The notes below the pieces were generated by a model. It searched no databases and had not been told where the DNA came from. It saw only the letters and a list, made by a program, of their open reading frames with translations. The position numbers and the translations under genes were made by a program. Positions 17,301 through 31,793 of a stretch of 32,000 bases of DNA are shown piece after piece (positions within the stretch are counted from its first letter, which is position 1; every line of letters begins with the position of its first letter). Origin of the DNA: Candidatus Omnitrophota bacterium (GTDB lineage Bacteria > Omnitrophota > Gorgyraeia > Duberdicusellales > 4484-171); NCBI GenBank assembly GCA_021735045.1, contig JAIPHU010000001.1:60001-92000 (forward strand), written 5' to 3'.

Positions 17301-17448
17301 GGGGACGGTCCTTACCCTTATAACTCTTTTTAAATTAAGTACTTATGAATTAAAATATTTCAATTATGCTTTCTTTTTCAGTTGTTTAGAGATAATATTT
17401 ATATAAGTTTCTGGCAATCAACAACTTATAATTAGAAGGACCGTCCCC
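17301..17448. repeat. 148-bp MITE-like element bounded by perfect 13-bp inverted repeats GGGGACGGTCCTT / AAGGACCGTCCCC
   Basis: Left repeat at 17301-17313, right repeat at 17436-17448. Both are followed inward by a TTATAA-containing stretch. The interior is very AT-rich. It lies between convergent genes, and the right repeat encodes the last codons of the minus-strand GT9 gene. Confidence 0.4.
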
Positions 17449-18475: not shown

Positions 18476-19532
18476 AAATTTTAATAAAACTATTAATTTT
18501 TTTGCTAATATCAAACTTATCAATTACTTGTTTGTGAGCATTTATAGATATTTGGCGATACAAAACTTTATCAGTTGTTAGTTTGATAATTGCTTGGCTG
18601 ATACTTTTTGGATTAACTGGTTTTGACTTTAAACCAGTTTTTTCATGATCCACTAATAAATTTAGGCCATCGACTCCAGATACCACAGGCGGTATGCCTA
18701 AGTATTGAGCTTCAACTACCGAAAGGCCCAAAGGTTCTTCTAGTGAAGGAAGGCAGAATATATCTAATGCGTTTAAAAAGGCAGCCAGTGATCTTTGTTT
18801 TAAGAAAATGAGGTGGTTGCTAATGTTTAATTTTTTTGAAATATTTAGTAAGGTTTTGTGATAGTTGCCTTCTCCTAAGATGTAAAATTTTGCTTGGGGG
18901 TATTTTTTTAAAACTTCAGGGATGCTTTTGATTAAATACTGAAAGCCTTTAACTGGTGATAGTCTTCCGGAGCTACCAATTATTGGGTTTCCGGTTAATT
19001 TTAGTGGGTGTGTGTTTCGATTTAAAGCTTTTAAGTCGATTCCAGAAAGAATTGTTTTTACTTTTTTTGGATTTGCTCCAAAGAATTTTATCAAGTCATC
19101 TTTTACAAGCGGGGTAATTGCGATTGAATATTTACCCTGGGCTTTTATTATTTTTCGTATTTTTCTGGCTTTATTTTTCTGATAAAAACCGTGGAAATTA
19201 GCTACATGCGGTATTTTTGTGAAAAAGCTATTTAATTGGCAAGCAACCTGGGTAACTCGAGTATGTGAATGGAGTAGATCATAGGGGAAATATTTATGTA
19301 TCTTCGATAGTTGAACTGCAGTAGCAACAATTTTTGGGGAGAGTTCGTTTTTAGTTTTAATCGGAATTTTATAAATTTCTAGGCCTAATTCTTTAAAGCG
19401 ATATTCTTGATTGCCACCGGAGGAACAAACTGCAACTTTAATGCCTTTTTCTAATAAGTATTTAGCTAAGGTATAGGTATAGGTGGTTATTCCACCGATA
19501 TTAAGATGAGGCAGTACTTGTAAAACTCGCAT
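18444..19532 (-). CDS. GT4 family glycosyltransferase
   Basis: 362 aa. MRVLQVLPHLNIGGITTY ... EEPLGLSVVEAQYLGIPPVVS (E-x7-E). Confidence 0.85.
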   Translation of the reverse strand: MRVLQVLPHLNIGGITTYTYTLAKYLLEKGIKVAVCSSGGNQEYRFKELGLEIYKIPIKTKNELSPKIVATAVQLSKIHKYFPYDLLHSHTRVTQVACQLNSFFTKIPHVANFHGFYQKNKARKIRKIIKAQGKYSIAITPLVKDDLIKFFGANPKKVKTILSGIDLKALNRNTHPLKLTGNPIIGSSGRLSPVKGFQYLIKSIPEVLKKYPQAKFYILGEGNYHKTLLNISKKLNISNHLIFLKQRSLAAFLNALDIFCLPSLEEPLGLSVVEAQYLGIPPVVSGVDGLNLLVDHEKTGLKSKPVNPKSISQAIIKLTTDKVLYRQISINAHKQVIDKFDISKKINSFIKIYEKAIKNTTS

Positions 19533-19629
19533 TTAATTAAGATATCATAGTAACAAGAAGATGAAAAGAAAAAAACTTGCCCTCAAGCCGGAGAGAAGTT
19601 ATATTATTAATCTAAGAAAAAACAAGTTT

Positions 19630-20562
19630 ATGAAAAAGATAAAAAAAATTATAGTAAATTTTCCCACTAATATTGGCGATACAATTTTAGCTTTACCGGC
19701 CTTAGACCGAATCAAAGCTAATTTCCCCCAAAGCAAGATTACAGCTATTGTTAGCCCGAAAACAAAAGATTTCCTTTTAAAAAATAATTTTATCGATATT
19801 GTAGTGTTATTTGATAAAAGATGGAAGGTCTTTAGGAAAATAAAATTTTGCTTGAATTTACGAAAAAAATTTGAGGTAATAGTTGATTTTAAAAATTCGA
19901 TGTTACCTGTTTTTTTAGGAATAAAGAGACACACCCCCTTCATACGCTTTTTTCCAAAAAATCTTCATATTAAAGATAAATATCTAAAAATTATAAAAAA
20001 GATTGCTCCGGAACCGGCTCAAGAAAAAAGCCAATTCATAATTTCAGAAGAAAAAAAGAAGAAATGGGATTTATCTAGCCAAAAAAAATATGTATTTTTT
20101 GGCTGTTTTTCTCGTTCTCATCGTAAGGATTACAATAAAAATAATTTAATTATTACGATTAATAAGTTACAAGTTGAATATAATTGTGTTTTGCTGGGTT
20201 TGCCGCAGGATAGACAAAAAATTAACCAGAATCAGTTAGGGGCAAGGGTAGTTAATTTGGTGGGTAAAACTGATATTGCTGATATTTATTTTCTTCTGGC
20301 TAGTTATGCGAAAGTTGTAGTTGCAGTCGATTCTAGCATTATGCATCTATCAAGTTACTTAAATGTACCGGTTGTTAGTTTATTTGGGCCAACTTTGCCA
20401 GAATGTTCGGGCCCTTGGTCAAAAAATTCAGTAATTTTACAAAATACAGATTTAAATTGTGTTCCTTGTGAAGGCCAAAAAGAATGTAAGGATATAAAAT
20501 GCATGGATATTGAACCAAAAAGAATAATCAGCGAAGTTAAGAAGATATTAAACAATGGATAA
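19630..20562 (+). CDS. GT9 family glycosyltransferase (LPS heptosyltransferase-like)
   Basis: MKKIKKIIVNFPTNIGDT ... DSSIMHLSS ... LFGPT. ATG 19630 is preferred because it gives the usual GT9 N-terminus and a possible TTGCCC-17-TATATT promoter lies upstream. The track start is 19561. Confidence 0.75.
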   Translation: MKKIKKIIVNFPTNIGDTILALPALDRIKANFPQSKITAIVSPKTKDFLLKNNFIDIVVLFDKRWKVFRKIKFCLNLRKKFEVIVDFKNSMLPVFLGIKRHTPFIRFFPKNLHIKDKYLKIIKKIAPEPAQEKSQFIISEEKKKKWDLSSQKKYVFFGCFSRSHRKDYNKNNLIITINKLQVEYNCVLLGLPQDRQKINQNQLGARVVNLVGKTDIADIYFLLASYAKVVVAVDSSIMHLSSYLNVPVVSLFGPTLPECSGPWSKNSVILQNTDLNCVPCEGQKECKDIKCMDIEPKRIISEVKKILNNG

Positions 20563-21577
20563 GCCAAAAAAAATTTTAGTTATCAGGACTGACCGGCTCG
20601 GGGATGTGATCCTTTCGACCCCGGTAATAAAAAATTTGCGTAAAAATTATCCTGACAGTTATATTGCTTTTACTTGCCGTCCTTATACAAAAGATATTCT
20701 TGAAGGTAATCCTTACTTAGATGAACTATTGATCTATGATAAATATGGCTATCATAAGAATTTCTTAGCGACTTTAAAGTTTGCTCTTTATTTAAGAAAG
20801 AAAAAGTTTGATTTGGCTTTAGTTCTGCATCCTACCAACAGGGCTCATATCTTGGCTTTTTTTGCCGGAATTGCGAAAAGAGTTGGTTGGAATAAGAAGC
20901 TAAGTTTTCTGTTAACAGATAAGTTGGCTCACACCAAAGACCAAGGGAAAAAACATGAACGGGAATACAATCTAGATCTTTTGCGTTATTTAGATATCTC
21001 CGCTGAAGATAAGGAAATTTATATTCCGGTACAAGAAAATGTTCAACAAAAAGTGGATCAGATTTTAGCCAAAGAAGGCATAGAGAGTAAAGACAAATTG
21101 ATAGTTATTCATCCTTGCGCAAGCTGTCCTTCGAAGCGATGGCCGCAAAGTAAGTTTATCGAATTAGTTAAGATGCTCAAAGCCGAAGAAGATATAAAAA
21201 TTGCAGTTATAAGTTCAGCTGATCAAAAAGAATTTGGTAAGGGGATATCGAAAATAGAAGGGGTAATTGATCTATGTGGGGCTTTGTCAATCTCAGAAAC
21301 TATTGCCTTAATTAATCGCGTGCGATTATTTATTTCTTGTGATTCCGGGCCAGTCCATATTGCCGCGGGTTTGAATAAACCAGTTATCTCAATCTTTGGT
21401 AGGTCTCAAGCCGGCCTTTCTCCAAAACGATGGGCACCAACTGGTAAAAACTCTTATTTTTTTCATAAAGATGTTGGTTGCAAAATTTGTCTTGCTCATA
21501 ATTGCCAGAAGGGGTTTAAGTGCCTTCAGGCAATCAAACCAGCAGAGGTGTACACTCTCGCCAAAAAACTCATCTAA
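20555..21577 (+). CDS. GT9 family glycosyltransferase (WaaF/WaaC-like heptosyltransferase)
   Basis: 340 aa. KKILVIRTDRLGDV ... DSGPVHIAAGL ... IFGRS. 8-nt overlap with the upstream gene. Confidence 0.8.
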   Translation: MDKPKKILVIRTDRLGDVILSTPVIKNLRKNYPDSYIAFTCRPYTKDILEGNPYLDELLIYDKYGYHKNFLATLKFALYLRKKKFDLALVLHPTNRAHILAFFAGIAKRVGWNKKLSFLLTDKLAHTKDQGKKHEREYNLDLLRYLDISAEDKEIYIPVQENVQQKVDQILAKEGIESKDKLIVIHPCASCPSKRWPQSKFIELVKMLKAEEDIKIAVISSADQKEFGKGISKIEGVIDLCGALSISETIALINRVRLFISCDSGPVHIAAGLNKPVISIFGRSQAGLSPKRWAPTGKNSYFFHKDVGCKICLAHNCQKGFKCLQAIKPAEVYTLAKKLI

Positions 21578-21953: not shown

Positions 21954-22577
21954 ATGAAATCAATTTCACGTAAAACTATTGACAGAGCTCTTTTGTATAT
22001 CAGAGCTTTAGAAAATTTGCTTAAAGAAAAGAGAGATAAAATTTCTTCTTTGGAATTAGCCGATATTACCGGCAGCTCTGACGTCCAAATCCGAAAAGAT
22101 ATATCTTTTTTTGGTAAAGTAGGAACACCTCGAATAGGTTATGAAACAAAAAAATTAAAAGATATTCTAGAAAATTTTATTCTCCAAAACAATGTTGTTC
22201 ATATCGCCTTATTTGGTGTAGGTAATTTAGGAAAAGCAATATTAAAATATCCGGGCTTTCAAACTGATAAAATTAAATTAGTTGCTGCTTTTGATAAAGC
22301 AAAAAGCAAGTTATTAAAAGAAATTAATGGAATTAAAATTTATCCGGTTGAGAGGTCTGTTGAATTAATTAAAAAAGTTCATGCTGAAATTGGAATCATT
22401 GCAGTTCCTCCCAGAAGCAGCCAAGAGGTTGCGGATATTATGGTTAAAGCGGGTTTAAAAGGGATAATAAATTTTGCACCAAGTTGCATCTCTGTTCCTA
22501 AAAACACATTTGTTAAGAATATAGATTTTTCAATAGAAATATTATCGATTTTTTCTCATACTCAATTTCAGAAATAA
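21954..22577 (+). CDS. rex: Redox-sensing transcriptional repressor Rex
   Basis: 207 aa. Winged-helix region SSLELADITGSSDVQIRKDISFFG, Rossmann LFGVGNLGKA, and C-terminal INFAP. Confidence 0.9.
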   Translation: MKSISRKTIDRALLYIRALENLLKEKRDKISSLELADITGSSDVQIRKDISFFGKVGTPRIGYETKKLKDILENFILQNNVVHIALFGVGNLGKAILKYPGFQTDKIKLVAAFDKAKSKLLKEINGIKIYPVERSVELIKKVHAEIGIIAVPPRSSQEVADIMVKAGLKGIINFAPSCISVPKNTFVKNIDFSIEILSIFSHTQFQK

Positions 22578-22597: not shown

Positions 22598-22969
22598 ATG
22601 GCAAAAATTTTAATGGTAGATGATGACAGAGAATTTTTAGAAGCATCTAAGGCAGTGCTTTCGGCTGAAGGTTATCAAGTTATATTGACTAAAAATGTTT
22701 CGCAAGCTGAAAAAAAGATCAAAGAAGAGAAGCCGGATATGATTTTTCTTGATGTGATGATGGAAGCACCTGATGATGGTATTGTTTTTGCCCATAAATT
22801 AAAAAAAGAAAATGTTGGTATTCCAATTGTTATGTTAAGTGCTATAGGTAAAGTTACCGGATATAGCCATAACCGTTGTGATGAGGTTATGCCTTGTGAT
22901 GGGTTTTTAGAAAAACCGGTTAATCCAAAAAGCTTATTAAATAAGGTTAAAAAGATCGTAGGTAAATAA
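22598..22969 (+). CDS. Stand-alone response-regulator receiver (CheY-like) protein
   Basis: 123 aa. Acidic pocket DDD (8-10), phospho-acceptor D52 (IFLDVMM), S81 (VMLSA), K106 (LEKP). No output domain. Confidence 0.9.
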   Translation: MAKILMVDDDREFLEASKAVLSAEGYQVILTKNVSQAEKKIKEEKPDMIFLDVMMEAPDDGIVFAHKLKKENVGIPIVMLSAIGKVTGYSHNRCDEVMPCDGFLEKPVNPKSLLNKVKKIVGK

Positions 22970-22986: not shown

Positions 22987-23466
22987 ATGGATAAAATGTG
23001 TTCAGTATCAAAAACCATAACTCAGGGAAAAAAGAAAATCCAGGTTTGTGATGCAACTCGTAGCCAACTTATTCCGATATTACGGCAAATTCAGGAAAAA
23101 AAAGGTTATATATCTGATAAGAACATGCAAGAAGTTGCGTCTTCTTTGGGGATACATCCAGTTGAAGTTTATTCTGTTGTTACCTTTTATTCTTTTTTAA
23201 CTACTGAAAAAAAAGGAAAACATATTATCAGAATAAGTAATTGTATATCCTCGGTTATGGCAGGCAGTAAAAGAATTATTAAAATTTTTGAAAAAGAGTT
23301 AGGAATAAAGGTGGGAGAAACTACTAAAGATAAAAAGCTTAGCTTAGAAGAGACTAGTTGCATTGGGATGTGTGATCAAGCCCCAGCTGCTTTAATTGAC
23401 GGAAATTTAATCGGCAAGCTAACGGCAAAAAAAGTAAAAAATATAGTTAAAGAATTAAAAAAGTAA
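22987..23466 (+). CDS. NuoE/HydC-like thioredoxin-fold [2Fe-2S] subunit, divergent (module 1)
   Basis: 159 aa, colinear with NuoE/HydC (EVYSVVTFYSFL, SCIGMCDQAPA). The first cluster motif reads C-ISSV-M instead of C-x4-C. Confidence 0.8.
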   Translation: MDKMCSVSKTITQGKKKIQVCDATRSQLIPILRQIQEKKGYISDKNMQEVASSLGIHPVEVYSVVTFYSFLTTEKKGKHIIRISNCISSVMAGSKRIIKIFEKELGIKVGETTKDKKLSLEETSCIGMCDQAPAALIDGNLIGKLTAKKVKNIVKELKK

Positions 23467-23481
23467 AATAGGGGAGAAAAT

Positions 23482-24663
23482 ATGACAAAAACGCGTAAAG
23501 GACCAATTATATTTAGTAAAAGCAAGCCTTTTTCTGGATTAAAGAATGCGATAGATATAGGCAGAAGTGAAGTTTTAGATTATGTACGTAAATCTAATAT
23601 TAAAGGTAGGGGCGGAGCAGGTTTTCCCACTGGTGTTAAATGGAATCTTACCGCTACTGCTTCTGATAAGAAAAAATATGTTATTTGTAATGCCGATGAG
23701 GGTGAACCAGGAACTTTTAAAGATAGAGTCCTTTTAGATGAATATGCAAAACTTGTTTTTGAGGGAATGGTTATTTGTGCGTTTGCTGTAGGTGCTGATG
23801 AAGGCATCTTGTATCTACGCGGTGAATATATATCATTTCTTCCTGAGCTGGAAAAAACCTTAAATCAGATGAGAAAGAATAATTTATTAGGTAAAAATAT
23901 TTTAGGCAAAAAAGGCTTTAATTTCGATATAAAGATAAGATTAGGTGTCGGGGCCTATGTTTGCGGTGAAGAAACTTCTCTTATTGAATCATTAGAAGGA
24001 TATAGAGGTGAACCCCGCAACAAACCTCCTTTCCCTACCAATACTGGATTTGCAGGTCATCCTACAGTTATAAATAATGTTGAAACTTTTGCAGCAATAG
24101 CTCATATAATTTTAAAAGGGCCAGATTGGTTTAGATCTATTGGAACTGAAAAATCTTCTGGGTCTAAACTAATAAGTGTATCTGGTGATTGTAAAAAACC
24201 AGGTGTTTATGAAATTCCTTTTGGAACCACTATTAAAAAAATTTTAAAACTAACAGAAGCTAAAGACACTAAAGCTGTTGAAGTAGGGGGTGCATCAGGA
24301 GTTTGTGTGGCTAAATCAGAATTTGGCAGAAAGATTGCTTACGAAGATTTATCTACTGGTGGTTCTATTATAATTTTTAGCAAAAAAAGGGATTTATTGG
24401 AGGTAGCTAAAAATTTTCTTGATTTTTTTGCTGAAGAATCTTGCGGCCAATGCACACCTTGCCGAGAAGGTATTCCGGTGTTACAAGAAAAATTAGATAA
24501 ATTACAACAAAAAAAAGCAACAAAGGGTGACCTTGAAGATATTTTTTCTTTAGCTGAGACTATGTACTTAGCTTCAAAGTGTGGCTTAGGCCAAACTGCT
24601 GCTTCAGCTTTTGTTTCGATATTAAGTAATTTTAAAAAAGATTATGTTTTGGTTAAATCATAA
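23482..24663 (+). CDS. NuoF-like NAD(P)H/FMN-binding subunit, minimal form (module 1)
   Basis: 393 aa. GRGGAGFPTGVKW, ICNADEGEPGTFKDR, GAYVCGEETSLIESLEG, ESCGQCTPCREG...KCGLGQTA. It lacks the N-terminal 2Fe-2S and C-terminal 2x[4Fe-4S] domains seen in the paralog at 28243. Confidence 0.85.
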   Translation: MTKTRKGPIIFSKSKPFSGLKNAIDIGRSEVLDYVRKSNIKGRGGAGFPTGVKWNLTATASDKKKYVICNADEGEPGTFKDRVLLDEYAKLVFEGMVICAFAVGADEGILYLRGEYISFLPELEKTLNQMRKNNLLGKNILGKKGFNFDIKIRLGVGAYVCGEETSLIESLEGYRGEPRNKPPFPTNTGFAGHPTVINNVETFAAIAHIILKGPDWFRSIGTEKSSGSKLISVSGDCKKPGVYEIPFGTTIKKILKLTEAKDTKAVEVGGASGVCVAKSEFGRKIAYEDLSTGGSIIIFSKKRDLLEVAKNFLDFFAEESCGQCTPCREGIPVLQEKLDKLQQKKATKGDLEDIFSLAETMYLASKCGLGQTAASAFVSILSNFKKDYVLVKS

Positions 24664-24678
24664 GGAGGAATCTTATTT

Positions 24679-26595
24679 ATGGCTAAAGAACCTTTTACAA
24701 AACCTACTTCGCGTGCTCCGGTAAGTCAAAGGTCGCAAACTGTAGGTAAAATTAACAAAAAAGCTTTAGGGGGAAAAGTAACTGCAGTAATTGATGGTAT
24801 TGAAATTAAAGTTCCTATGGGAACAACTATTTTAGAAGCAGCTAAAAAAATAGGTATAAAAATACCGACTCTTTGCCATCATGAGGATTTATGTTTAGCT
24901 GGGGTATGCCGTGTTTGCTTGGTTGAAGTGGAGGGGCAAAAAACCTTACAGGCATCTTGTTCTTATCCGATTATTCATAATGTAGTAGTTAAAACTTATT
25001 CATCACGGGTAAGGCGAGCTAGAAAAAATATTATTCATCTTCTTTTACGCAATCATTATGGTGAATGTTATTCTTGTGAAAAAAATAATAATTGTGAACT
25101 GCAAGATTTAGCAGAAGAATATGGTGTTACCGAATATAAGTTTGGCCATATTCAGGAGAGGCGTTTTCAGCCTGATCTTTCGAGTTCTGCTATAACTAAA
25201 GATAATGATAAATGTATAAATTGTAAAAGATGTATCAGGACTTGCATTGATTTGCAAGAAGTTGGAGTTTATGAATCAGTTAATCGCGGGCCAGAAACAA
25301 AAGTTTCGACTTATTTAAATAAGCCTTATTCAGATGTAATTTGTATAAATTGCGGACAATGCGTAAATAGATGCCCTACAGGAGCCCTAAAGGAGAAAAA
25401 TGATGTTGCAGGTGTATGGAAAGCTATAGATAATCCTAATAAGCATGTTGTGATTCAAACTGCACCAGCACCACGGGCAGCAATTGGAGAAGAGTTTGGT
25501 CTGGCTCCAGGCACCTCAGTTACCAAACAGTTAAATACAGCTATAAAAAGAGTTGGGTTCGATAAGGTTTTTGATACTAACTCGTCAGCAGATTTAACTA
25601 TTATGGAAGAAGGTACAGAACTATTGCTTAGGCTTAAGAAATATTTAAAAGAGCAGGATAAAAGCGTTAAATTACCTCAGTTTACTTCTTGTTCGCCGGG
25701 TTGGATCAAATATTTAGAAGATTTTTATCCGGATAAAGTAGATTATTTATCAACTTGTAAAAGCCCCCAACAGATGTTTGGGGCATTAATCAAGACATAT
25801 TATGCAAAAAAAGCAAAAATTGATCCTAAAAACATTGTTAGTGTATCATTGATGCCGTGTGTTGCTAAAAAATATGAAGCTAAAAGACCAGAGATGAATG
25901 ATTCAGGTTATCAGGATGTTGATTATGTTTTAACCACCAGAGAACTTGCGAGCATGGTCAAGGAATGCGGATTAGATTTACCTCGGTTACCGGAATCTGA
26001 CTTTGATAAGCCTCTAGCTATAGGAAGCGGTGCAGGATTAATTTTTGGTGCAACCGGTGGTGTTATGGAAGCAGCTTTACGAACTGCTTATGAATTAGTT
26101 ACCGGTGATGAAGCTCCTTTTAAAAAATTAAGAGTTACTCCAGTAAGAGGTATGGAAGGTATCCGTGATGCTCAAATTCCGATAAAAAAAGCTAAAAAAG
26201 AGTGGAAATTTCTTGAGGGTGCCAGCTTAAAGGTTATGGTTGCTCATGGTACAGCTAATGCTAAAAAAGTAATGGAGATGCTTGAGTTGGGTAAGTTAGA
26301 TGATTATCATTTTGTTGAAATTATGGCTTGCCCGGGTGGCTGTTTAGGTGGAGGGGGTCAACCTATCCCTACTACCGACGCAATAAGGAAACAACGGGCA
26401 AAAGCAATATATGCTGAGGACGAACAACTCACTATTAGAAAATCTCATCAGAATCCTGTAGTGGAGACTCTTTATAAAGAGTTTTTAACTGATGGGCCAT
26501 GTGGGCACAAGAGCCACAAATTTTTACATACTCATTATTCTCCGGGTAGTAGTTGGATAGGTAAAAAACCGAGAGTAAAAGTTAGGAAAAAATAA
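24679..26595 (+). CDS. [FeFe]-hydrogenase catalytic-subunit paralog (M3-type domain order) with TSCSP variant of H-cluster motif L1 (module 1)
   Basis: 638 aa. N-terminal 2Fe-2S domain, H-x3-C-x2-C-x5-C cluster, and 2x C-x2-C-x2-C-x3-CP. H-domain motifs are FTSCSPGW, MPCVAKKYE and EIMACPGGCLGGGGQP. Confidence 0.9.
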   Translation: MAKEPFTKPTSRAPVSQRSQTVGKINKKALGGKVTAVIDGIEIKVPMGTTILEAAKKIGIKIPTLCHHEDLCLAGVCRVCLVEVEGQKTLQASCSYPIIHNVVVKTYSSRVRRARKNIIHLLLRNHYGECYSCEKNNNCELQDLAEEYGVTEYKFGHIQERRFQPDLSSSAITKDNDKCINCKRCIRTCIDLQEVGVYESVNRGPETKVSTYLNKPYSDVICINCGQCVNRCPTGALKEKNDVAGVWKAIDNPNKHVVIQTAPAPRAAIGEEFGLAPGTSVTKQLNTAIKRVGFDKVFDTNSSADLTIMEEGTELLLRLKKYLKEQDKSVKLPQFTSCSPGWIKYLEDFYPDKVDYLSTCKSPQQMFGALIKTYYAKKAKIDPKNIVSVSLMPCVAKKYEAKRPEMNDSGYQDVDYVLTTRELASMVKECGLDLPRLPESDFDKPLAIGSGAGLIFGATGGVMEAALRTAYELVTGDEAPFKKLRVTPVRGMEGIRDAQIPIKKAKKEWKFLEGASLKVMVAHGTANAKKVMEMLELGKLDDYHFVEIMACPGGCLGGGGQPIPTTDAIRKQRAKAIYAEDEQLTIRKSHQNPVVETLYKEFLTDGPCGHKSHKFLHTHYSPGSSWIGKKPRVKVRKK

Positions 26596-26596
26596 C

Positions 26597-27346
26597 GTGA
26601 ATAGTAAAAAATATAAGAAAAAAGATAAGTTAGATATTTCTAATCAAGAACTTGAGTCTTCTGATAAACAGTATCTTGATTTAGTTGGTTTTGTCTCGCA
26701 TGAGCTAAAAGGAATTCTTTCTTCGGTTGTTTTAAATACCTATAATTTGCAAAATGGCCTATTGGGAGATCTAAATCCAGCTCAGAAAAAAACATTAAAA
26801 TCTATAAGTAGAAATTTAGATTATTTAACTACAACTGTTCGTAATTTTTTGAATTTTAGCCGGATTGAAAAACAAGAGTTATCTTTGAATAAATTTCGTT
26901 GTCTATTCAAAGAAGATATAGTTGATGTTTCCATTGATTCATATTCACAAGCAGCTGCAGATAAAGATATAAAAATTATAAATAAAGCAATCTCTTCGCT
27001 AGAGGTAGAAGTAGATTCAGGATTGTTACAGATAGCATTAAATAATCTTTTATCTAATGCGATAAAATATGGCAAAGAAGGCCGGGAGGTTGTAATTTCA
27101 ACTGAATTAGATAACAATAAAGTTATAGTTGAAATATATAATCAGGGTGAATCTATAGATAAGACTGATATTGATAAGTTATTTAAAAAGTTTAGCCGTC
27201 TGCATTATCGCGGTACCGAAAAGATAAAAGGAACCGGAATTGGCCTTTATATTACCAAAGAGATTATCAACCAGCATCATGGAAATATCTGGGTTGAACC
27301 AAAGCCAGAAGGAAATAGTTTTAAGTTCAGTTTAGAGGTGGTATAA
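26597..27346 (+). CDS. Histidine kinase consisting only of DHp + HATPase domains (no sensor or TM domain)
   Basis: 249 aa. H-box FVSHELKG at about residue 36, N-box LLSNAIKYG, G2 GTGIGLYITKEI. GTG start lies 1 nt after the upstream stop codon. Confidence 0.85.
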   Translation: MNSKKYKKKDKLDISNQELESSDKQYLDLVGFVSHELKGILSSVVLNTYNLQNGLLGDLNPAQKKTLKSISRNLDYLTTTVRNFLNFSRIEKQELSLNKFRCLFKEDIVDVSIDSYSQAAADKDIKIINKAISSLEVEVDSGLLQIALNNLLSNAIKYGKEGREVVISTELDNNKVIVEIYNQGESIDKTDIDKLFKKFSRLHYRGTEKIKGTGIGLYITKEIINQHHGNIWVEPKPEGNSFKFSLEVV

Positions 27347-27371: not shown

Positions 27372-28241
27372 ATGAAAAATAAAATCTTAATTATTGATGA
27401 TGATGCTGATTTTGTAGAAGCAATCTCTTTACTATTGGAAGCAAACGGTTATAAAACATTGCAAGCTTATAATGGTAAAGAAGGTTTTGCTCAAGCAAAA
27501 GAGCAGGTGCCTGATTTGATAATGTTGGATATGAAGATGGCATATCAAACTGAAGGTGCTGAAACTGCTAAAGCAATGTCAAAAGATGCAGAAATAAAGG
27601 ATATCCCAGTCATTTTAGCAACTGGAATCGGTAAAGAGTTGACTAAAAAGTTAAAAGAGATCCTTAGGAATGAAGCAATGTCAGTTAAAACTGTTATTGA
27701 AAAGCCAATAGAAGCAAAAGAGCTTCTTAAAATAATAAAGAATTATATAGGTGAAAGTGGCGGCAAAGAACATAGAGAATTAATCAAACAAATTACCAGT
27801 TTTGCTAATAAATGGAAAGGCAAGAAAGGTAATTTAGTTATGATTCTTCATGAAATACAAAATTATTATGGTTATGTACCCAGGGGTATTTCGTTTCAAT
27901 TATCTCGGTTATTAGGTATTCCTTTAGCAAGAATTTATGAAGTTATAACCTTTTATAATTTTTTCAAGCTTTCGCCTCCTGGCAAACATGTGATTTCGGT
28001 TTGTATGGGGACAGCTTGTTATCTAAAGGGTGCTGCGGAGTTAGTTGATAAGATTAAAAGTCTTCTTAAAATAGAAGAAGGCCAAACTACAGAAGACGGT
28101 TTGTTTCATCTTCAAGTTGTTAGATGCCTAGGTTGTTGTGGTCTTGCTCCTGTAGTTATGGTTGATCAAAAAATATATTCAAAAGTTGTGCCAGATAGCA
28201 TCGAAGGTATTGTTTCTAGATACAGGCAGGATAAAAGTTAA
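27372..28241 (+). CDS. hydC: Fusion: response-regulator receiver domain + NuoE/HydC-like [2Fe-2S] subunit (module 2)
   Basis: 289 aa. Residues 1-~120 form a REC domain (DDD 9-11, D53 in IMLDMKM, T84, K111). Residues ~130-289 are NuoE-like with an intact C-x4-C (VCMGTAC) and CLGCCGLAP. Confidence 0.85.
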   Translation: MKNKILIIDDDADFVEAISLLLEANGYKTLQAYNGKEGFAQAKEQVPDLIMLDMKMAYQTEGAETAKAMSKDAEIKDIPVILATGIGKELTKKLKEILRNEAMSVKTVIEKPIEAKELLKIIKNYIGESGGKEHRELIKQITSFANKWKGKKGNLVMILHEIQNYYGYVPRGISFQLSRLLGIPLARIYEVITFYNFFKLSPPGKHVISVCMGTACYLKGAAELVDKIKSLLKIEEGQTTEDGLFHLQVVRCLGCCGLAPVVMVDQKIYSKVVPDSIEGIVSRYRQDKS

Positions 28242-28242
28242 T

Positions 28243-30045
28243 ATGGATAAATTAAATCAAAAAAAAATAGAAGAACTTAGAGAAAAACTTCAAAAGCAAA
28301 GACCGGGTTTTGTTAAGGTTGGAGTAAGTTCTTGTGGAATAGCAGCTGGAGCAAATGATGTATTAGATCGTTTTATAGCTTTAAAAAAGAAAAATAATTT
28401 AGATATTGAAATTAGAAAGTGTGGTTGTGCTGGTATGTGTTATGCAGAGCCATTGGTGGAAGTTTCTTTAGACGGTAGAGATTCTGTAACTTATAAAGAA
28501 GTTACACCTGAACTAGTAGAAAAAATAGTAAAAAATCATATTATCTCCGGAAAAATCCAAGAGGATTATGTTTATAAAACCGATACTGAAAAAAAACAGT
28601 TTAAGTTAATTCTTTCCAATTGTGGAAAAGTTAACCCAGAAAGTATCAATGATTATATTTCTTTGGGTGGTTACCGAGCTGTAGAAAAAGTTCTTATTAA
28701 AGAAAATAGGCAAGAGGTAATTGATCAGTTGAAAATAAGTGGTTTGAGAGGAAGAGGCGGGGGAGGTTTTCCCACCTGGTTAAAATGGAATTTTGCTAAA
28801 GGAGTTAACGCAGATAAAAAGTATATAATCTGTAATGGCGACGAGGGTGATCCCGGGGCTTATATGGATAGGAGCCTTCTAGAGGGTAATCCTCATGCAA
28901 TTATTGAGGGGATGATTATTGCTGGTTTTGCTGTAGGGGCAGATGAAGGGTTTTTTTATATTCGAGCCGAATATCCTCTTGCAATTTCTCGAGTTCAAAA
29001 AGCAATTGATGCTGCTATTGATTATGGATTATTGGGAGAAAATATTTTAGATACTGGGTTTAACTTTAATTTACAAATTCGTCTTGGTGCCGGTGCGTTT
29101 GTTTGTGGAGAAGAAACTGCTTTAATTGCATCTATTGAAGGTAAGCGTGGCTATCCTTCTCCGCGTCCTCCCTATCCTTCTGTAAAAGGCCTTTGGTCGA
29201 AACCAACGGTGATCAACAACGTTGAAACTTTAGCTAATATTCCAATTATATTTGATAAAGGAGGAGATTGGTTTTCAAAAATTGGAAGTCAAAACTCTAA
29301 AGGTACCAAGGTATTTGCTCTCACCGGGAAAGTTAAAAATTCTGGTTTAGTTGAAGTTCCGATGGGCACGACTTTAGGTGAAATTGTTTATGGTATTGGT
29401 GGCGGTGTATCTGGCGGCAAAGTGAAGGCGATTCAGACTGGTGGGCCTTCCGGAGGAGTTATTCCTAAAGAATACTTTGATACTCCTGTAAATTATGAAA
29501 GTTTGCAAAAATTAGGTTCCATAATGGGTTCCGGCGGAATGATTGTTATGGATGAAAAGGATTGTATGGTTGATATCGCTAAATTTTATATGAAATTTTG
29601 TGTAGAAGAGGCTTGTGGTAAATGTTCTCCTGGCCGCATTGGAACTTATCAGATGTTACAATATCTTAAAAAGATATCCAAGGGTAAAGCAAACATGAAT
29701 GATTTACAGTTATTAGAGGATATTGCTTATGCGGTTCAAAGGACCGCTTTGTGTGGGTTAGGCCAAACTGCACCTAATCCCGTAGTATCAACTTTAAAGT
29801 ATTTTCGCGATGAATATATTGCGCATATTAAAGAACAAAGATGTCCAGCGGGAAAATGTAAAGATTTAGCAAAATATAAGATAGTTGAAGACAAGTGTAA
29901 AAAATGTGGTGCTTGTATTAAAGTTTGTCCAGTAGAGGCGATTTCAGGAGATAAAGATAAGGGCTACAAGATAGATCAAAAAAAGTGTATCCAGTGTGGT
30001 AAATGTTTCCAAGTTTGTAGTTTTGATGCAATAAAAAAAGGTTAA
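28243..30045 (+). CDS. hydB: HydB/NuoF-like subunit, full-length bifurcating-type architecture (module 2)
   Basis: 600 aa from ATG 28243. N-terminal thioredoxin-like 2Fe-2S (SSCGIAAG...CGCAGMC), GRGGGGFPTWLKW, ICNGDEGDPGAYMDR, GAFVCGEETALIASIEG, and C-terminal 2x[4Fe-4S] (CKKCGACIKVCP, CIQCGKCFQVC). Confidence 0.9.
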   Translation: MDKLNQKKIEELREKLQKQRPGFVKVGVSSCGIAAGANDVLDRFIALKKKNNLDIEIRKCGCAGMCYAEPLVEVSLDGRDSVTYKEVTPELVEKIVKNHIISGKIQEDYVYKTDTEKKQFKLILSNCGKVNPESINDYISLGGYRAVEKVLIKENRQEVIDQLKISGLRGRGGGGFPTWLKWNFAKGVNADKKYIICNGDEGDPGAYMDRSLLEGNPHAIIEGMIIAGFAVGADEGFFYIRAEYPLAISRVQKAIDAAIDYGLLGENILDTGFNFNLQIRLGAGAFVCGEETALIASIEGKRGYPSPRPPYPSVKGLWSKPTVINNVETLANIPIIFDKGGDWFSKIGSQNSKGTKVFALTGKVKNSGLVEVPMGTTLGEIVYGIGGGVSGGKVKAIQTGGPSGGVIPKEYFDTPVNYESLQKLGSIMGSGGMIVMDEKDCMVDIAKFYMKFCVEEACGKCSPGRIGTYQMLQYLKKISKGKANMNDLQLLEDIAYAVQRTALCGLGQTAPNPVVSTLKYFRDEYIAHIKEQRCPAGKCKDLAKYKIVEDKCKKCGACIKVCPVEAISGDKDKGYKIDQKKCIQCGKCFQVCSFDAIKKG

Positions 30046-30047
30046 TT

Positions 30048-31793
30048 ATGCCCAAAGCAATAATAAATAACAAAGAAGTCATAGTTGAGGAAGGTACAAC
30101 AATTCTTGATGCTGCCAAAAAGATAAATATAGATATTCCTACTTTGTGTAAGCATCCTGACTTAGATGCCAGTGCTGCTTGCGGTATTTGCGTAGTTAAG
30201 GTCAAAGGGTCAAAAAAGATGCTTCGGGCTTGCTGTACTGCGTTAGAAGAAGGTATGAATATAATCACTCATGACAATGAACTTCAGAAGATAAGAAGGA
30301 CGGTTATCGAATTAATTTTATCAAATCATCCTAATGATTGCCTTCAATGTGCGCGCAACAATAACTGTGAGCTACAAAAACTAGCTGCTGATTTTGGAAT
30401 AAGGGAATTTCCTTTTCCTCAATTTTTAAGAGATGTCCCTGAAGATGAATCTACTAAAACCATTGATCTTGTTCCTTCAAAGTGTATTCTTTGTGGCAGG
30501 TGTGTACAGGTGTGCCAGGATTTACAAGATGTTTGGGCACTTTCTTTTATTGAAAGAGGACACAAAACTAGGATTTCTGCTGCCGGAGATATTAATTTGT
30601 CAGAAAGTCCTTGTATTCGTTGTGGGCAGTGTTCGGCCCATTGTCCTACCGGTGCTATTGCCGAGCATGATCAAACCGAAGATGTTTGGAGGGCTTTATA
30701 TAACGAGAAAAAATATTGTATGGTTCAAATTGCTCCTGCTGTAAGAGTTGCGATCGGAGAAGCATTTAATCTTCCTATTGGCGCGAATTTAACTGGGAAA
30801 ATTTATTCGGCTCTCCGGCGTCTAGGTTTTAATGCAGTATTTGATACTTCTTTTGGCGCAGATGTTACTGTTATGGAGGAAGCTACTGAGTTTGTGGAAC
30901 GTTTTGTTCATAAAAAGGGTAAATTACCTTTGATAACTACTTGCTGCCCCTCTTGGGTTGATTTTATGGAAAAATTTTATCCGGATATGATTGATAATTT
31001 TTCTTCCTCAAAATCTCCTCATGAGATGTTAGGGGTATTAGCAAAAACTTATTTTGCCCAAAAAAATAAAATAGATCCAAAAGATATGTATATGGTATCA
31101 ATCATGCCTTGTACATCCAAAAAATATGAAATAAGCCGCAGCAATCAAATGTATGCCTCAGGATATCAAGATGTTGATACATCATTAACTACTCGTGAAT
31201 TAGCAAGAATGATAAAACAGGCCGGAATTGATTTTGCTAATTTAGAAGAAGAGAAGGCTGATAATATTTTAGGTGATTATACCGGGGCGGGAGTAATTTT
31301 TGGCGCAACCGGTGGGGTTATGGAAGCAGCTTTACGAACTGCTTATTTTTTAATTACTGGTAAAAACTTTAAAGAGGTAAAATATAATGATGTGCGTGGC
31401 CTTGAGGGTGTAAAAGAAACAGTTGTAAATATTGCGGGAGAAAAAGTGAGGATAGCTATAGCTCATGGTATGGGAAATGTTGAAGCTGTTTTAAATAAAA
31501 TCCGTCAAGCTTTGGCTGAAGGCAAAAAGCCTCCTTATGATTTTATTGAAGTTATGGCTTGTCCGGGTGGCTGTATCGGTGGGGGCGGCCAACCTTATGG
31601 AGTTACGGATCAGCTTCGTATTGCCAGGGCATCTGGCCTGTATAGTGATGATGATAAAAAAGAGATTCATTTTTCTCATGATAATCCATACATAAAACAA
31701 TTATATGATAGCTTTTTAGGTAAACCGTCAGGAGAAAAAGCTAAAAAATTATTGCATACGCGCTATGTGCCGCGTCCGCTTTACAAAAAATAG
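30048..31793 (+). CDS. hydA: [FeFe]-hydrogenase catalytic subunit HydA, canonical H-cluster motifs (module 2)
   Basis: 581 aa in M3 domain order. TTCCPSW, MPCTSKKYE, EVMACPGGCIGGGGQP. Confidence 0.9.
   Translation: MPKAIINNKEVIVEEGTTILDAAKKINIDIPTLCKHPDLDASAACGICVVKVKGSKKMLRACCTALEEGMNIITHDNELQKIRRTVIELILSNHPNDCLQCARNNNCELQKLAADFGIREFPFPQFLRDVPEDESTKTIDLVPSKCILCGRCVQVCQDLQDVWALSFIERGHKTRISAAGDINLSESPCIRCGQCSAHCPTGAIAEHDQTEDVWRALYNEKKYCMVQIAPAVRVAIGEAFNLPIGANLTGKIYSALRRLGFNAVFDTSFGADVTVMEEATEFVERFVHKKGKLPLITTCCPSWVDFMEKFYPDMIDNFSSSKSPHEMLGVLAKTYFAQKNKIDPKDMYMVSIMPCTSKKYEISRSNQMYASGYQDVDTSLTTRELARMIKQAGIDFANLEEEKADNILGDYTGAGVIFGATGGVMEAALRTAYFLITGKNFKEVKYNDVRGLEGVKETVVNIAGEKVRIAIAHGMGNVEAVLNKIRQALAEGKKPPYDFIEVMACPGGCIGGGGQPYGVTDQLRIARASGLYSDDDKKEIHFSHDNPYIKQLYDSFLGKPSGEKAKKLLHTRYVPRPLYKK

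What the first reader, a model, noticed from the sequence alone, without database searches (positions are those of the whole stretch)
27372..28241. Receiver domain fused in-frame to the NuoE-like (HydC) subunit of a bifurcating-type hydrogenase
Residues 1-~120 have every receiver-domain hallmark: DDD 9-11, phospho-acceptor D53, T84 and K111. After a short linker (GESGGKEH), an intact NuoE/HydC domain follows with all four cluster cysteines (C-x4-C and C-x3-C). In module 1 the equivalent REC (22598) and HydC' (22987) are separate adjacent genes, a classic Rosetta-stone pair supporting a physical REC-HydC interaction. I do not know of a described example of a phospho-receiver wired directly to an electron-transfer subunit of the NADH-binding module.
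Basis: partly seen in the sequence, partly recalled or inferred. Interest (0 to 1): 0.8.

Follow-up and report, generated by a model that had tools for sequence, protein, structure and literature searches.

The report
Phospho-receiver fused to hydrogenase HydC subunit

Summary
ORF 27372-28241 (+) is one uninterrupted 289-aa protein with a REC domain, a short linker and a complete NuoE/HydC [2Fe-2S] domain.

- **Not an artefact.** More than 120 protein clusters (51-91% identity, mostly Omnitrophota MAGs) share the architecture. D9, D10, D53, T84 and K111 are 90-100% conserved and all four cluster cysteines are invariant. The REC half is under purifying selection as strong as the NuoE half.
- **Context.** The conserved locus is Rex, histidine kinase, REC-HydC, HydB, HydA. 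A kinase lies directly upstream in 20 of 21 fused loci. In most relatives it is a ~610-aa Cache-HAMP membrane sensor; in this window's subclade only the soluble catalytic core remains.
- **Split and independent forms.** Five related genomes have separate adjacent REC and HydC genes. Independent REC-NuoE fusions occur in Nitrospirota and Desulfobacterota-type MAGs beside formate dehydrogenase or Hdr-type partners.
- **Best reading.** This is a two-component system whose output is the gating subunit of a bifurcating enzyme, giving post-translational control.
- **Literature.** Ten full-text searches and eleven papers gave no description, but automated annotation already labels some homologs "NuoE/CheY-like".

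Verdict: a new variant of a known kind; interest 0.64.

The parts
27372..28241 (+). REC-HydC fusion gene (289 aa), the subject of the finding
   Evidence: Uninterrupted ORF. Pfam Response_reg plus 2Fe-2S_thioredx. More than 120 homologous clusters share the architecture.
27381..27749 (+). Receiver (REC) domain, residues 4-126. Acidic pair D9/D10, phospho-acceptor D53 (codon 27528-27530), T84, K111-P112.
   Evidence: Pfam 5-123. AF2 (beta-alpha)5 fold. Family conservation: D9 118/121, D10 109/121, D53 112/121, T84 112/121, K111 121/121. dN/dS 0.04-0.07.
27750..27776 (+). Linker, residues 127-135 (GESGGKEHR). The E-H-R motif matches the N-terminus of an unfused HydC (L023).
27765..28226 (+). NuoE/HydC (BfuC) module: helical N-terminal domain (residues 132-192) and thioredoxin-like C-terminal domain (206-285), with [2Fe-2S] ligands C211, C216, C252 and C256.
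   Evidence: Pfam 144-284. All four Cys invariant in 121/121. Best PDB sequence and fold matches are BfuC/HydC chains 7t2r_C, 9n5u_C, 8a6t_C, 7q4v_C, 7p5h_C.
26597..27346 (+). Presumed cognate histidine kinase. It is a soluble DHp plus catalytic core only (249 aa, GTG start, H-box His35 at 26699-26701), with no sensor, transmembrane or HAMP domain.
   Evidence: Pfam HisKA plus HATPase_c. Orthologous to the C-terminal ~240 aa of the ~610-aa Cache-HAMP kinases upstream of REC-HydC in relatives. Aligns to HK853. A kinase lies directly upstream in 20 of 21 fused loci.
28243..30045 (+). HydB (BfuB) of module 2, 600 aa: N-terminal thioredoxin-like 4-Cys domain, FMN/NADH domain, SLBB, NADH_4Fe-4S, and two C-terminal [4Fe-4S] domains. 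The start is 1 nt after the REC-HydC stop.
   Evidence: The N-terminal ~115 aa is a separate gene in many relatives.
30048..31793 (+). HydA (BfuA) of module 2, 581 aa, an [FeFe]-hydrogenase catalytic subunit with canonical motifs TTCCPSW, MPCTSKKYE and EVMACPGGCIGGG.
22598..22969 (+). Stand-alone REC of module 1 (123 aa), a paralog of the fused REC (33% identity).
   Evidence: Conserved next to HydC' in L004, L006, L008 and L015. Same REC superclade.
22987..23466 (+). HydC' of module 1 (159 aa), a NuoE-like paralog (27% identity) with non-canonical cluster ligands.
23482..26595 (+). HydB' (393 aa, lacks the N-terminal thioredoxin-like and C-terminal ferredoxin domains) and HydA' (638 aa, L1 motif TSCSPGW): a non-bifurcating-type module 1.
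   Evidence: Type described in PMC7311640 and PMC11406978.
21954..22577 (+). Rex-type redox-sensing repressor at the head of the cluster.
   Evidence: Pfam Put_DNA-bind_N plus CoA_binding. Rex is found upstream of the kinase/REC-HydC unit in most relatives.

Best explanation

Proposed mechanism:
1. The histidine kinase encoded directly upstream phosphorylates, and probably also dephosphorylates, Asp53.
2. Helix alpha5 of REC joins the first helix of HydC's N-terminal domain through a linker of only 5-9 residues. In solved Bfu enzymes that N-terminal domain anchors the subunit between HydA and HydB. The C-terminal domain, carrying [2Fe-2S] cluster C1, swings between the FMN and the ferredoxin-side clusters.
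3. The phosphorylation-induced change in REC is therefore proposed to alter either the docking of HydC or the swing of its cluster domain.
4. The result is that hydrogenase turnover is switched up or down after translation.

Rex supplies the transcriptional (NADH/NAD+) layer. In most relatives the signal comes from a periplasmic Cache sensor on the kinase. In this window's lineage the kinase is reduced to its soluble catalytic core, so the input must differ: a partner protein, another kinase, or acetyl phosphate.

Shown here: the fusion, its conservation, the intact phospho-acceptor residues, the kinase linkage, and the bifurcating-type partners. Inferred: phosphotransfer, that it changes enzyme activity, and the gating mechanism.
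For: - **Real and selected.** Intact ORF and both domains. More than 120 homologous clusters share the architecture. Catalytic REC residues are 90-100% conserved and the four Cys are invariant. REC dN/dS is 0.04-0.07, against 0.06-0.15 for NuoE.
- **Must serve as the enzyme's HydC.** It is the only NuoE-type gene of module 2 and is coupled to HydB by a 1-nt gap. Its closest solved relatives by sequence and fold are BfuC/HydC chains of bifurcating enzymes. HydB has the N-terminal thioredoxin-like and C-terminal 2x[4Fe-4S] domains, and HydA has canonical H-cluster motifs.
- **Kinase linkage.** A HisKA+HATPase_c kinase lies immediately upstream in 20 of 21 fused loci. Among about 60 loci with a plain HydC, only three (L028, L047, L074) show a kinase-like ORF on the upstream side. 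The locus encodes no DNA-binding response regulator, only REC-HydC and, in many relatives, one small REC.
- **Recurrent association.** Split REC|HydC pairs occur in five genomes. The Omnitrophota fusion forms a single clade, while fusions in Nitrospirota and Desulfobacterota-type MAGs are polyphyletic and sit beside formate dehydrogenase or HdrA/MvhD partners.
- **Mechanistic frame from the literature.** The BfuC N-terminal domain is anchored between BfuA and BfuB, and its cluster-bearing C-terminal domain moves as the gate of bifurcation (PMC11829005; PMC9304861). HydB/HydC form outward lobes in T. maritima HydABC, leaving room for an extra N-terminal domain (PMC9499530).
Against: - There are no experimental data of any kind; all carriers are uncultivated MAGs.
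- The AF2 inter-domain geometry is uncertain (pTM 0.60), and I could not model the complex, so where REC sits relative to HydB/HydA is unknown.
- The REC lacks the aromatic switch residue common on beta5 (V108; I or V across the family). Its alpha4 region differs between this subclade and the rest of the family.
- 7 of 121 homologs have His or Asn at the D53 position, so phosphorylation is not universally required.
- The kinase family has a non-canonical G1 box (N-x-G-x-[P/S] instead of D-x-G-x-G), and the window's kinase has no sensor domain. Kinase activity and input are therefore uncertain in this genome.
- L019 has the fusion without an adjacent kinase.
Confidence: 0.55

Rival explanations
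1. Phosphorylation-controlled assembly. REC acts mainly as a phospho-dependent dimerisation module through its alpha4-beta5-alpha5 face. It would tie HydBC lobes of neighbouring protomers together, or recruit HydC to HydAB, so that the oligomeric state or assembly of HydABC is what is regulated, not the swing of the cluster domain.
For: Solved HydABC and Nfn enzymes are dimers or tetramers of ABC trimers with HydB/HydC lobes on the outside (PMC9499530; PMC11829005). Many receivers dimerise on phosphorylation (established knowledge). The family has a distinctive, conserved alpha4 region.
Against: In T. maritima, oligomerisation runs through the HydA core and not through HydC. The alpha4 region is not conserved between this subclade and the rest of the family. 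I could not make a multimer model.
Confidence: 0.15
2. Reverse signalling or phosphate sink. The redox state of the HydC cluster or of the enzyme controls how readily the fused REC accepts or loses phosphate. REC-HydC would then report hydrogenase/NADH status to the kinase and compete with the small stand-alone REC, whose unknown target is the true output.
For: Many relatives encode a second, closely related single-domain REC just after HydA, an arrangement like that of phosphate-sink systems (established knowledge). The window's kinase has no sensor domain of its own.
Against: The window's subclade and several other loci lack the downstream REC (L006, L008, L012, L014, L015). Most kinases in the family have their own periplasmic Cache sensor, which implies signal flow from kinase to REC. 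No target for the small REC is evident.
Confidence: 0.12
3. Pseudo-receiver. The REC domain is a phosphorylation-independent structural or docking domain of HydC, and the nearby kinase serves another regulator.
For: 7 of 121 homologs lack Asp at position 53. The aromatic switch residue is absent. The kinase G1 box is atypical. L019 has no adjacent kinase.
Against: D9, D10, D53, T84 and K111-P112 are kept in 90-100% of homologs under strong purifying selection. A kinase lies directly upstream in 20 of 21 fused loci and is rare at plain-HydC loci. No other partner regulator is encoded in the locus.
Confidence: 0.1
4. Assembly or sequencing artefact that joined two adjacent genes (REC and HydC).
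For: Split REC|HydC gene pairs do exist in some genomes (L036, L039, L045, L052, L055).
Against: More than 120 independent clusters from NCBI, JGI, ENA and Logan assemblies have the same uninterrupted fusion at 274-317 aa (most 280-298). The linker is conserved. The closest relatives, at about 84% nucleotide identity, have the same gene with no indel.
Confidence: 0.01

Closest known systems
HydC/BfuC subunits of structurally solved electron-bifurcating enzymes: T. kivui and A. woodii HydABC (8a6t_C, 7q4v_C), T. maritima HydABC (7p5h_C), A. mobile NiFe-HydABCSL (7t2r_C), NfnABC (9n5u_C, 9bp5_C)
   Same: The C-terminal 150 residues have the same fold and all four [2Fe-2S] ligands, with phmmer E-values of 1e-32 to 1e-43 and 37-44% identity. 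The operon partners are the same: HydB with N-terminal thioredoxin-like and C-terminal 2x[4Fe-4S] domains, and an H-cluster HydA.
   Different: None of the solved chains (150-189 aa) has an N-terminal receiver, and no PDB chain spans both halves. The Bfu family survey and the structure papers do not mention one.
Response regulators with enzymatic outputs, such as CheB (REC-methylesterase) and PleD/WspR (REC-GGDEF). Own knowledge, not tested here.
   Same: An N-terminal REC is joined by a short linker to a non-DNA-binding effector. A cognate kinase is encoded next door. Control of activity is post-translational.
   Different: Here the output is not a self-contained enzyme. It is an iron-sulfur electron-transfer subunit that must assemble into a multi-subunit redox complex. 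I found no such output in any paper I could search.
Two-component control of [NiFe]-hydrogenase genes by H2-sensing regulatory hydrogenases: HoxBC-HoxJ-HoxA and HupUV-HupT-HupR. Own knowledge.
   Same: A histidine kinase and a receiver protein are dedicated to hydrogenase regulation.
   Different: Those systems act on transcription through a DNA-binding (NtrC-type) regulator and take H2 as input through a sensor hydrogenase. Here the receiver is part of the enzyme, and the usual input domain is a periplasmic Cache sensor.
Group C putative sensory [FeFe]-hydrogenases with PAS or histidine-kinase domains, encoded next to group A3 HydABC clusters (PMC11406978, PMC8542988, PMC9324843)
   Same: Signalling domains are embedded in or adjacent to bifurcating hydrogenase operons.
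   Different: There the signalling domain is fused to a HydA-like sensor protein (an input). Here a receiver (an output-side domain) is fused to HydC of the catalytic enzyme.
Module 1 of this same window, and non-bifurcating NADH-dependent HydABC of the S. wolfei type (PMC7311640)
   Same: REC and a NuoE-like gene sit side by side, which is the split counterpart of the fusion. This REC belongs to the same clade of hydrogenase-linked RECs.
   Different: The genes are separate. HydB' lacks the ferredoxin-side domains, HydC' lacks the canonical C-x4-C pair, and HydA' has a Cys-to-Ser change in motif L1.

Membership tests
Response-regulator receiver domain (REC / CheY-like, PF00072) | Profile match above the curated threshold | tested here: met
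   60.4 bits against a cutoff of 30.2, covering 1-111 of the 111-position model.
Response-regulator receiver domain (REC / CheY-like, PF00072) | (beta-alpha)5 fold | tested here: met
   The AF2 model has beta1-alpha5 in canonical order over residues 4-126. Block-mean pLDDT is 84-91 over residues 1-50 and 65-84 over residues 51-130. This is a prediction only. Sequence matches in the PDB include RR468, DivK and CheY at E of about 1e-11.
Response-regulator receiver domain (REC / CheY-like, PF00072) | Active-site quintet: acidic pair after beta1, phospho-acceptor Asp at the end of beta3, Thr/Ser at the end of beta4, Lys at the end of beta5 | tested here: met
   D9/D10, D53, T84 and K111(-P112) are present in the window. 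Across 121 homologs they occur in 118, 109, 112, 112 and 121 sequences respectively.
Response-regulator receiver domain (REC / CheY-like, PF00072) | Cognate histidine kinase and actual phosphotransfer to the Asp | not testable with these tools
   A HisKA+HATPase_c kinase lies directly upstream here and in 20 of 21 fused loci. Phosphotransfer itself needs biochemistry.
HydC/BfuC (NuoE-type, PF01257) subunit of a Bfu-family electron-bifurcating enzyme | Full-length NuoE-type domain with four Cys ligands for the [2Fe-2S] cluster C1 | tested here: met
   PF01257 covers 4-144 of 145 positions at E 5e-47. C211, C216, C252 and C256 are invariant in 121/121.
HydC/BfuC (NuoE-type, PF01257) subunit of a Bfu-family electron-bifurcating enzyme | Closest relatives are BfuC subunits of proven bifurcating enzymes | tested here: met
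   The top PDB hits by sequence and by fold are 7t2r_C, 9n5u_C, 8a6t_C, 7q4v_C, 9bp5_C and 7p5h_C. They rank ahead of complex I NuoE.
HydC/BfuC (NuoE-type, PF01257) subunit of a Bfu-family electron-bifurcating enzyme | Encoded with a BfuB that has the extra N-terminal thioredoxin-like and C-terminal 2x[4Fe-4S] domains, and with a BfuA catalytic subunit | tested here: met
   HydB 28243-30045 has Complex1_51K, SLBB, NADH_4Fe-4S and two Fer4 domains at residues 546-599, plus a 4-Cys N-terminal domain homologous to the split 116-aa proteins of relatives. HydA has all three H-cluster motifs.
HydC/BfuC (NuoE-type, PF01257) subunit of a Bfu-family electron-bifurcating enzyme | Assembly into the complex and NADH+ferredoxin-coupled (bifurcating) H2 turnover | not testable with these tools
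   Only inference is available: it is the sole NuoE-type gene of module 2, and its stop codon is 1 nt from the HydB start.
Classical transcription-factor response regulators (OmpR, NarL, NtrC types) | DNA-binding or sigma54-activating output domain after REC | tested here: not met
   Pfam finds only Response_reg and 2Fe-2S_thioredx, apart from one sub-threshold FAM186A-B_N match (15.9 bits against a cutoff of 27). There is no HTH, wHTH or AAA+ domain.
H2-sensing regulatory hydrogenase systems (group C HydS; HoxBC/HupUV type) | Signalling domain fused to, or partnered with, a sensory hydrogenase large subunit | tested here: not met
   The receiver is on HydC, not on a HydA-like protein. Neither HydA nor HydA' carries a PAS or kinase domain.

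The most novel reading that the evidence does not exclude
A two-component phosphorelay acts directly on the bifurcation gate. Phosphorylation of a receiver built into BfuC/HydC would switch a flavin-based electron-bifurcating enzyme on or off, or between bifurcating and non-bifurcating behaviour, within seconds. In most carriers the trigger would be an extracellular ligand sensed by a Cache kinase. The same solution would have evolved independently for hydrogenases, formate dehydrogenases and Hdr-linked Bfu enzymes in at least three phyla, making it a general, unrecognised layer of post-translational control of anaerobic redox metabolism.
Probability: 0.4. Interest if true: 0.8.

Novelty: new variant of a known kind. 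Interest (0 to 1): 0.64.

Why it matters
- **Gap in current knowledge.** Electron-bifurcating HydABC-type enzymes set the H2, NADH and ferredoxin balance of fermenters and syntrophs. As far as I know, their regulation is known at the transcriptional level (Rex, sensory hydrogenases).
- **What this would add.** A receiver domain on the subunit that carries the proposed gating cluster would be the first indication that these enzymes are throttled directly by a kinase. In most carriers the kinase has a periplasmic Cache sensor.
- **Experimental value.** Phosphomimetic or BeF3-activated receiver variants could trap conformational states of BfuC that are hard to capture, giving a natural handle for probing the debated bifurcation mechanism.
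- **Ecological relevance.** It bears on Omnitrophota, whose lifestyle (free-living, syntrophic or host-dependent) is unresolved. An external cue coupled to H2 metabolism would be informative there.
- **Breadth.** Independent fusions next to formate dehydrogenase and Hdr-type modules suggest the principle is general for the Bfu family.

Tried and rejected
- **Assembly artefact.** Rejected. The same fusion appears in more than 120 clusters from independent sources, and there is no indel against relatives at about 84% nucleotide identity.
- **Kinase G1-box reading.** I first read the short kinase as having a G1-box Asp-to-Gln change specific to this subclade. Alignment to HK853 showed that the G1 Asp position is Asn in the whole kinase family, long Cache forms included, so I withdrew the subclade-specific claim.
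- **Literature.** Ten full-text searches used various combinations of response regulator / receiver / CheY-like with NuoE / HydC / hydrogenase / Bfu / Omnitrophota. I read eleven papers. None describes the fusion. Two search calls failed on term syntax. Galperin's response-regulator censuses were not held in the library, so prior mention in subscription literature or in InterPro architecture tables cannot be excluded.
- **Complex modelling.** No inter-domain or inter-subunit contact analysis was possible.
- **Counting the family.** The exhaustive search at 50% identity collapses the core family to one representative. It shows breadth (at least 11 further REC+NuoE clusters) but not absolute numbers.
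- **Module 1 as an H2/NADH-sensing complex feeding the kinase.** I considered this because HydA' has a Ser in the proton relay, HydC' has altered ligands, and the kinase abuts HydA'. I did not adopt it. In relatives a CMD-like gene, or Rex plus a full Cache kinase, separates the two modules, and many fused loci have no module 1.
Full report
**1. Observation**

The ORF at 27372-28241 (+) is intact and encodes 289 aa.
- Pfam calls a receiver domain at residues 5-123 (60.4 bits against a cutoff of 30.2) and a full-length NuoE-type thioredoxin-like [2Fe-2S] domain at residues 144-284 (E 5e-47).
- An AlphaFold2 model built on a 50-sequence family alignment (pLDDT 80, pTM 0.60) gives a canonical (beta-alpha)5 fold for residues 4-126. 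A five-residue linker follows, then the helical N-terminal domain (132-192) and the thioredoxin-like C-terminal domain (206-285) of NuoE.
- A Foldseek search of the PDB matches only the C-terminal ~150 residues, to BfuC/HydC chains. No solved chain spans both halves.

**2. The fusion is genuine and selected**

- A search of 5.8 billion proteins returned 120 listed clusters at 51-91% identity. All are 274-317 aa (most 280-298) and all carry PF00072 plus PF01257. Most come from Candidatus Omnitrophota MAGs, with some from Aureabacteria/Auribacterota and Gygaella.
- Across 121 sequences, D9 is kept in 118, D10 in 109, D53 in 112 (His or Asn in 7), T84 in 112, K111 in 121 and P112 in 119. The four cluster cysteines are invariant.
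- The linker motif E-H-R (H134 in 97 of 121) matches the N-terminus of an unfused HydC, L023 (M-E-H-K). This is what loss of a stop codon and a short spacer would produce.
- Against the three closest relatives, the REC half has dN/dS of 0.04-0.07 and the NuoE half 0.06-0.15. Synonymous sites are near saturation, so these are rough values, but REC is if anything the better conserved half.
- The window is collinear with an Omnitrophota MAG (GCA_046484225.1) at about 84% nucleotide identity, with no indel in this gene.

**3. Context in the window**

| Gene | Coordinates | Notes |
|---|---|---|
| Rex | 21954-22577 | |
| REC | 22598-22969 | module 1, stand-alone |
| HydC' | 22987-23466 | module 1 |
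| HydB' | 23482-24663 | module 1, short form |
| HydA' | 24679-26595 | module 1 |
| Histidine kinase | 26597-27346 | GTG start, 1 nt after the HydA' stop |
| REC-HydC | 27372-28241 | |
| HydB | 28243-30045 | 1 nt after the REC-HydC stop |
| HydA | 30048-31793 | |

Sources.
- Module 2 is a bifurcating-type (group A3 / Bfu) enzyme. HydB has the N-terminal thioredoxin-like 4-Cys domain and two C-terminal [4Fe-4S] domains, and HydA has canonical H-cluster motifs.
- REC-HydC is the only NuoE-type gene of module 2, so it must supply the C1 cluster.
- Module 1 is the non-bifurcating type described by Losey et al. and by the Hydrogenedentota study.

**4. Context elsewhere**

I fetched 92 loci in all; the counts in this section cover the 89 Omnitrophota-type loci L001-L089.
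- The conserved unit is Rex, histidine kinase, REC-HydC, (a 116-aa split N-terminal domain of HydB), HydB, HydA, (a 127-aa REC), then HydF/G/E.
- A kinase is directly upstream in 20 of 21 fused loci; L019 is the exception.
- Most of these kinases are ~610-aa proteins with two transmembrane segments, a periplasmic Cache_3-Cache_2 domain, HAMP, HisKA and HATPase_c.
- The window and its closest relatives (L006-L011) instead have a 229-249-aa kinase that starts at the DHp helix. It is clearly orthologous to the catalytic core of the long kinases and keeps the H-box GFVSHELKG.
- Those relatives have a small CMD/AhpD-like CxxC gene before the kinase. In the window that gene is replaced by about 66 nt.
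- Five loci (L036, L039, L045, L052, L055) have a separate REC gene immediately upstream of an unfused HydC.
- About 60 loci from Omnitrophota, Planctomycetota, Fibrobacterota, Elusimicrobiota, Sumerlaeota, Verrucomicrobiota and others have a plain HydC. Only three of them (L028, L047, L074) show a kinase-like ORF on the upstream side, and none has an adjacent REC.

**5. Evolution**

- In a neighbour-joining tree of REC domains, the fused RECs of Omnitrophota form one clade. The split upstream RECs and the small RECs downstream of HydA are its sister group, and the module-1 RECs come next.
- In the NuoE tree, the Omnitrophota fused HydCs form one clade nested among plain HydCs. The three "plain" members inside it (L022, L051, L028) are cut by contig ends.
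- An exhaustive profile search of 1.84 billion representatives found at least 11 further clusters at 50% identity or less with REC plus NuoE, confirmed by Pfam.
- The source names of these clusters are Thermodesulfovibrionales, Dissulfurispiraceae, and Deltaproteobacteria/Pseudomonadota MAGs. Some carry the automatic name [quoted passage not shown].
- Three of their loci have different partners:
  - a NuoF-like subunit, a molybdopterin formate dehydrogenase and FdhD (L090);
  - a Cache kinase, an NtrC-type regulator, REC-REC, REC-NuoE, a NuoF-like subunit and a 588-aa ferredoxin-domain (BfuA-like) protein whose catalytic domain I did not identify (L091);
  - a NuoF-like subunit, HdrA, MvhD/FlpD and HdrBC-like genes (L092).
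- These distant fusions are scattered in both trees, which suggests several independent fusion events. My trees are distance-based and only indicative.

**6. Mechanism**

From the literature:
- In Bfu enzymes the BfuC N-terminal domain is wedged between BfuA and BfuB.
- The C-terminal domain, with cluster C1, moves between the FMN and the B3/B4 clusters and is proposed to be the gate of bifurcation (PMC11829005; PMC9304861).
- In T. maritima HydABC the oligomer core is HydA, and HydB/HydC form outward lobes (PMC9499530). An N-terminal extension on HydC is therefore sterically plausible.

My best explanation is that the adjacent kinase phosphorylates D53, and that the resulting change in REC, passed through a very short linker into the HydC N-terminal domain, alters HydC docking or the C1-domain swing and so throttles the enzyme. 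Rex adds transcriptional control.

Approximate confidences for each step:
- genuine fused gene: 0.97
- serves as HydC of module 2: 0.85
- phosphorylated by the adjacent kinase: 0.7 in the family, lower in this genome
- phosphorylation changes enzyme activity or assembly: 0.5-0.55
- the specific gating mechanism: 0.25

Points against:
- There are no experiments.
- The inter-domain geometry is uncertain.
- The aromatic switch residue on beta5 is absent (V108).
- The alpha4 region differs between this subclade and the rest of the family.
- The kinase family has an atypical G1 box.
- The window's kinase has no sensor domain.

Rivals are phospho-dependent oligomerisation, reverse signalling or a phosphate sink, a pseudo-receiver, and an artefact. 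They are scored separately in the report.

**7. Comparison with what is known**

- The protein meets the tested criteria for a REC domain and for a BfuC/HydC subunit.
- It is not a DNA-binding response regulator and not a sensory hydrogenase.
- The nearest analogies are REC-enzyme regulators such as CheB, and the HoxJ/HoxA-type control of hydrogenase genes (own knowledge). In the first the output is a stand-alone enzyme; in the second it is transcription.
- Ten full-text searches and eleven papers gave no description of a receiver on HydC/BfuC.
- The response-regulator censuses were not available. The architecture is visible in automated annotations, so "undescribed" means undescribed in the literature I could search.

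**8. Verdict**

- It is a new variant of a known kind: a response regulator whose output is an iron-sulfur subunit of a bifurcating enzyme.
- It is widespread in one candidate phylum, recurrent elsewhere, and experimentally untouched.
- Interest is 0.64. It still merits attention because it offers a testable route to post-translational control, and to mechanistic dissection, of electron bifurcation.

Noticed in passing
window 24679-26595 (HydA'); also L004, L006, L008, L012, L015, L023, L047: Module 1's [FeFe]-hydrogenase catalytic subunit has L1 motif TSCSPGW, so the proton-relay Cys of the canonical TSCCPxW is Ser. This holds in the window and in every relative examined. Motifs L2 and L3 are canonical in the five module-1 HydA' sequences. 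The same Ser variant occurs in HydA partners of the ~1048-aa HydB proteins, where my L3 pattern found no match. It suggests an altered or slow catalyst, or a sensor.
   Followed up: partly
window 22987-23466 (HydC'): Module 1's NuoE-like protein has Ser at both positions of the canonical C-x4-C pair. It keeps C-x3-C, has one Cys offset by two residues, and has two conserved N-terminal Cys (C5, C21). The pattern is conserved in L004, L008 and L015. The [2Fe-2S] site is either lost or ligated differently.
   Followed up: partly
window 26595-26661, compared with L006 8949-9290: The closest relatives (L006, L008) have a 113-115-aa CMD/AhpD-like gene with a CPVC motif between HydA' and the short kinase. 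In the window it is absent (no tblastn hit) and is replaced by about 66 nt. The kinase therefore gains a 19-aa N-terminal extension and a GTG start 1 nt after the HydA' stop.
   Followed up: yes
window 26597-27346, and the kinases of L001, L004, L015: Aligned to HK853, the kinase family next to REC-HydC has a non-canonical G1 box: N-[D/Q]-G-x-[P/S]-I instead of D-x-G-x-G-I. The H-box, N-box and G2 box are intact. ATP binding or the kinase/phosphatase balance may be unusual.
   Followed up: partly
L001 14482-14865, L002 14804-15187, L013, L016, L017, L020, L021, L052: Many relatives encode a 127-aa single-domain REC directly after HydA. It is more closely related to the fused REC than to the module-1 REC. 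The window ends about 200 nt after HydA, so its presence here cannot be judged. The closest relative, L006, lacks it.
   Followed up: partly
L090, L091, L092; proteins P0127-P0263: Independent REC-NuoE fusions in Nitrospirota and Desulfobacterota-type MAGs sit beside formate dehydrogenase or HdrA/MvhD/HdrBC-like genes. NuoE is also found fused to Fer4, FAD-binding and molybdopterin domains (P0178, P0200, P0209, P0238). One 578-aa protein (P0134) appears to hold a tandem REC-NuoE-REC-NuoE.
   Followed up: partly
window 23482-24663 (HydB'): This 393-aa NuoF-like subunit lacks both the N-terminal thioredoxin-like domain and the C-terminal ferredoxin domains. It matches the non-bifurcating HydB type (PMC7311640; sub-type II in PMC11406978). 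The genome thus pairs a non-bifurcating-type and a bifurcating-type hydrogenase module in one cluster, each with its own REC.
   Followed up: partly
window 17432-21577: A cluster of glycosyltransferase family 9 (heptosyltransferase-like) and GT4 genes lies just upstream of Rex. It is syntenic with L006 and L008. The window is collinear with Omnitrophota MAG GCA_046484225.1 at 76-85% nucleotide identity.
   Followed up: no
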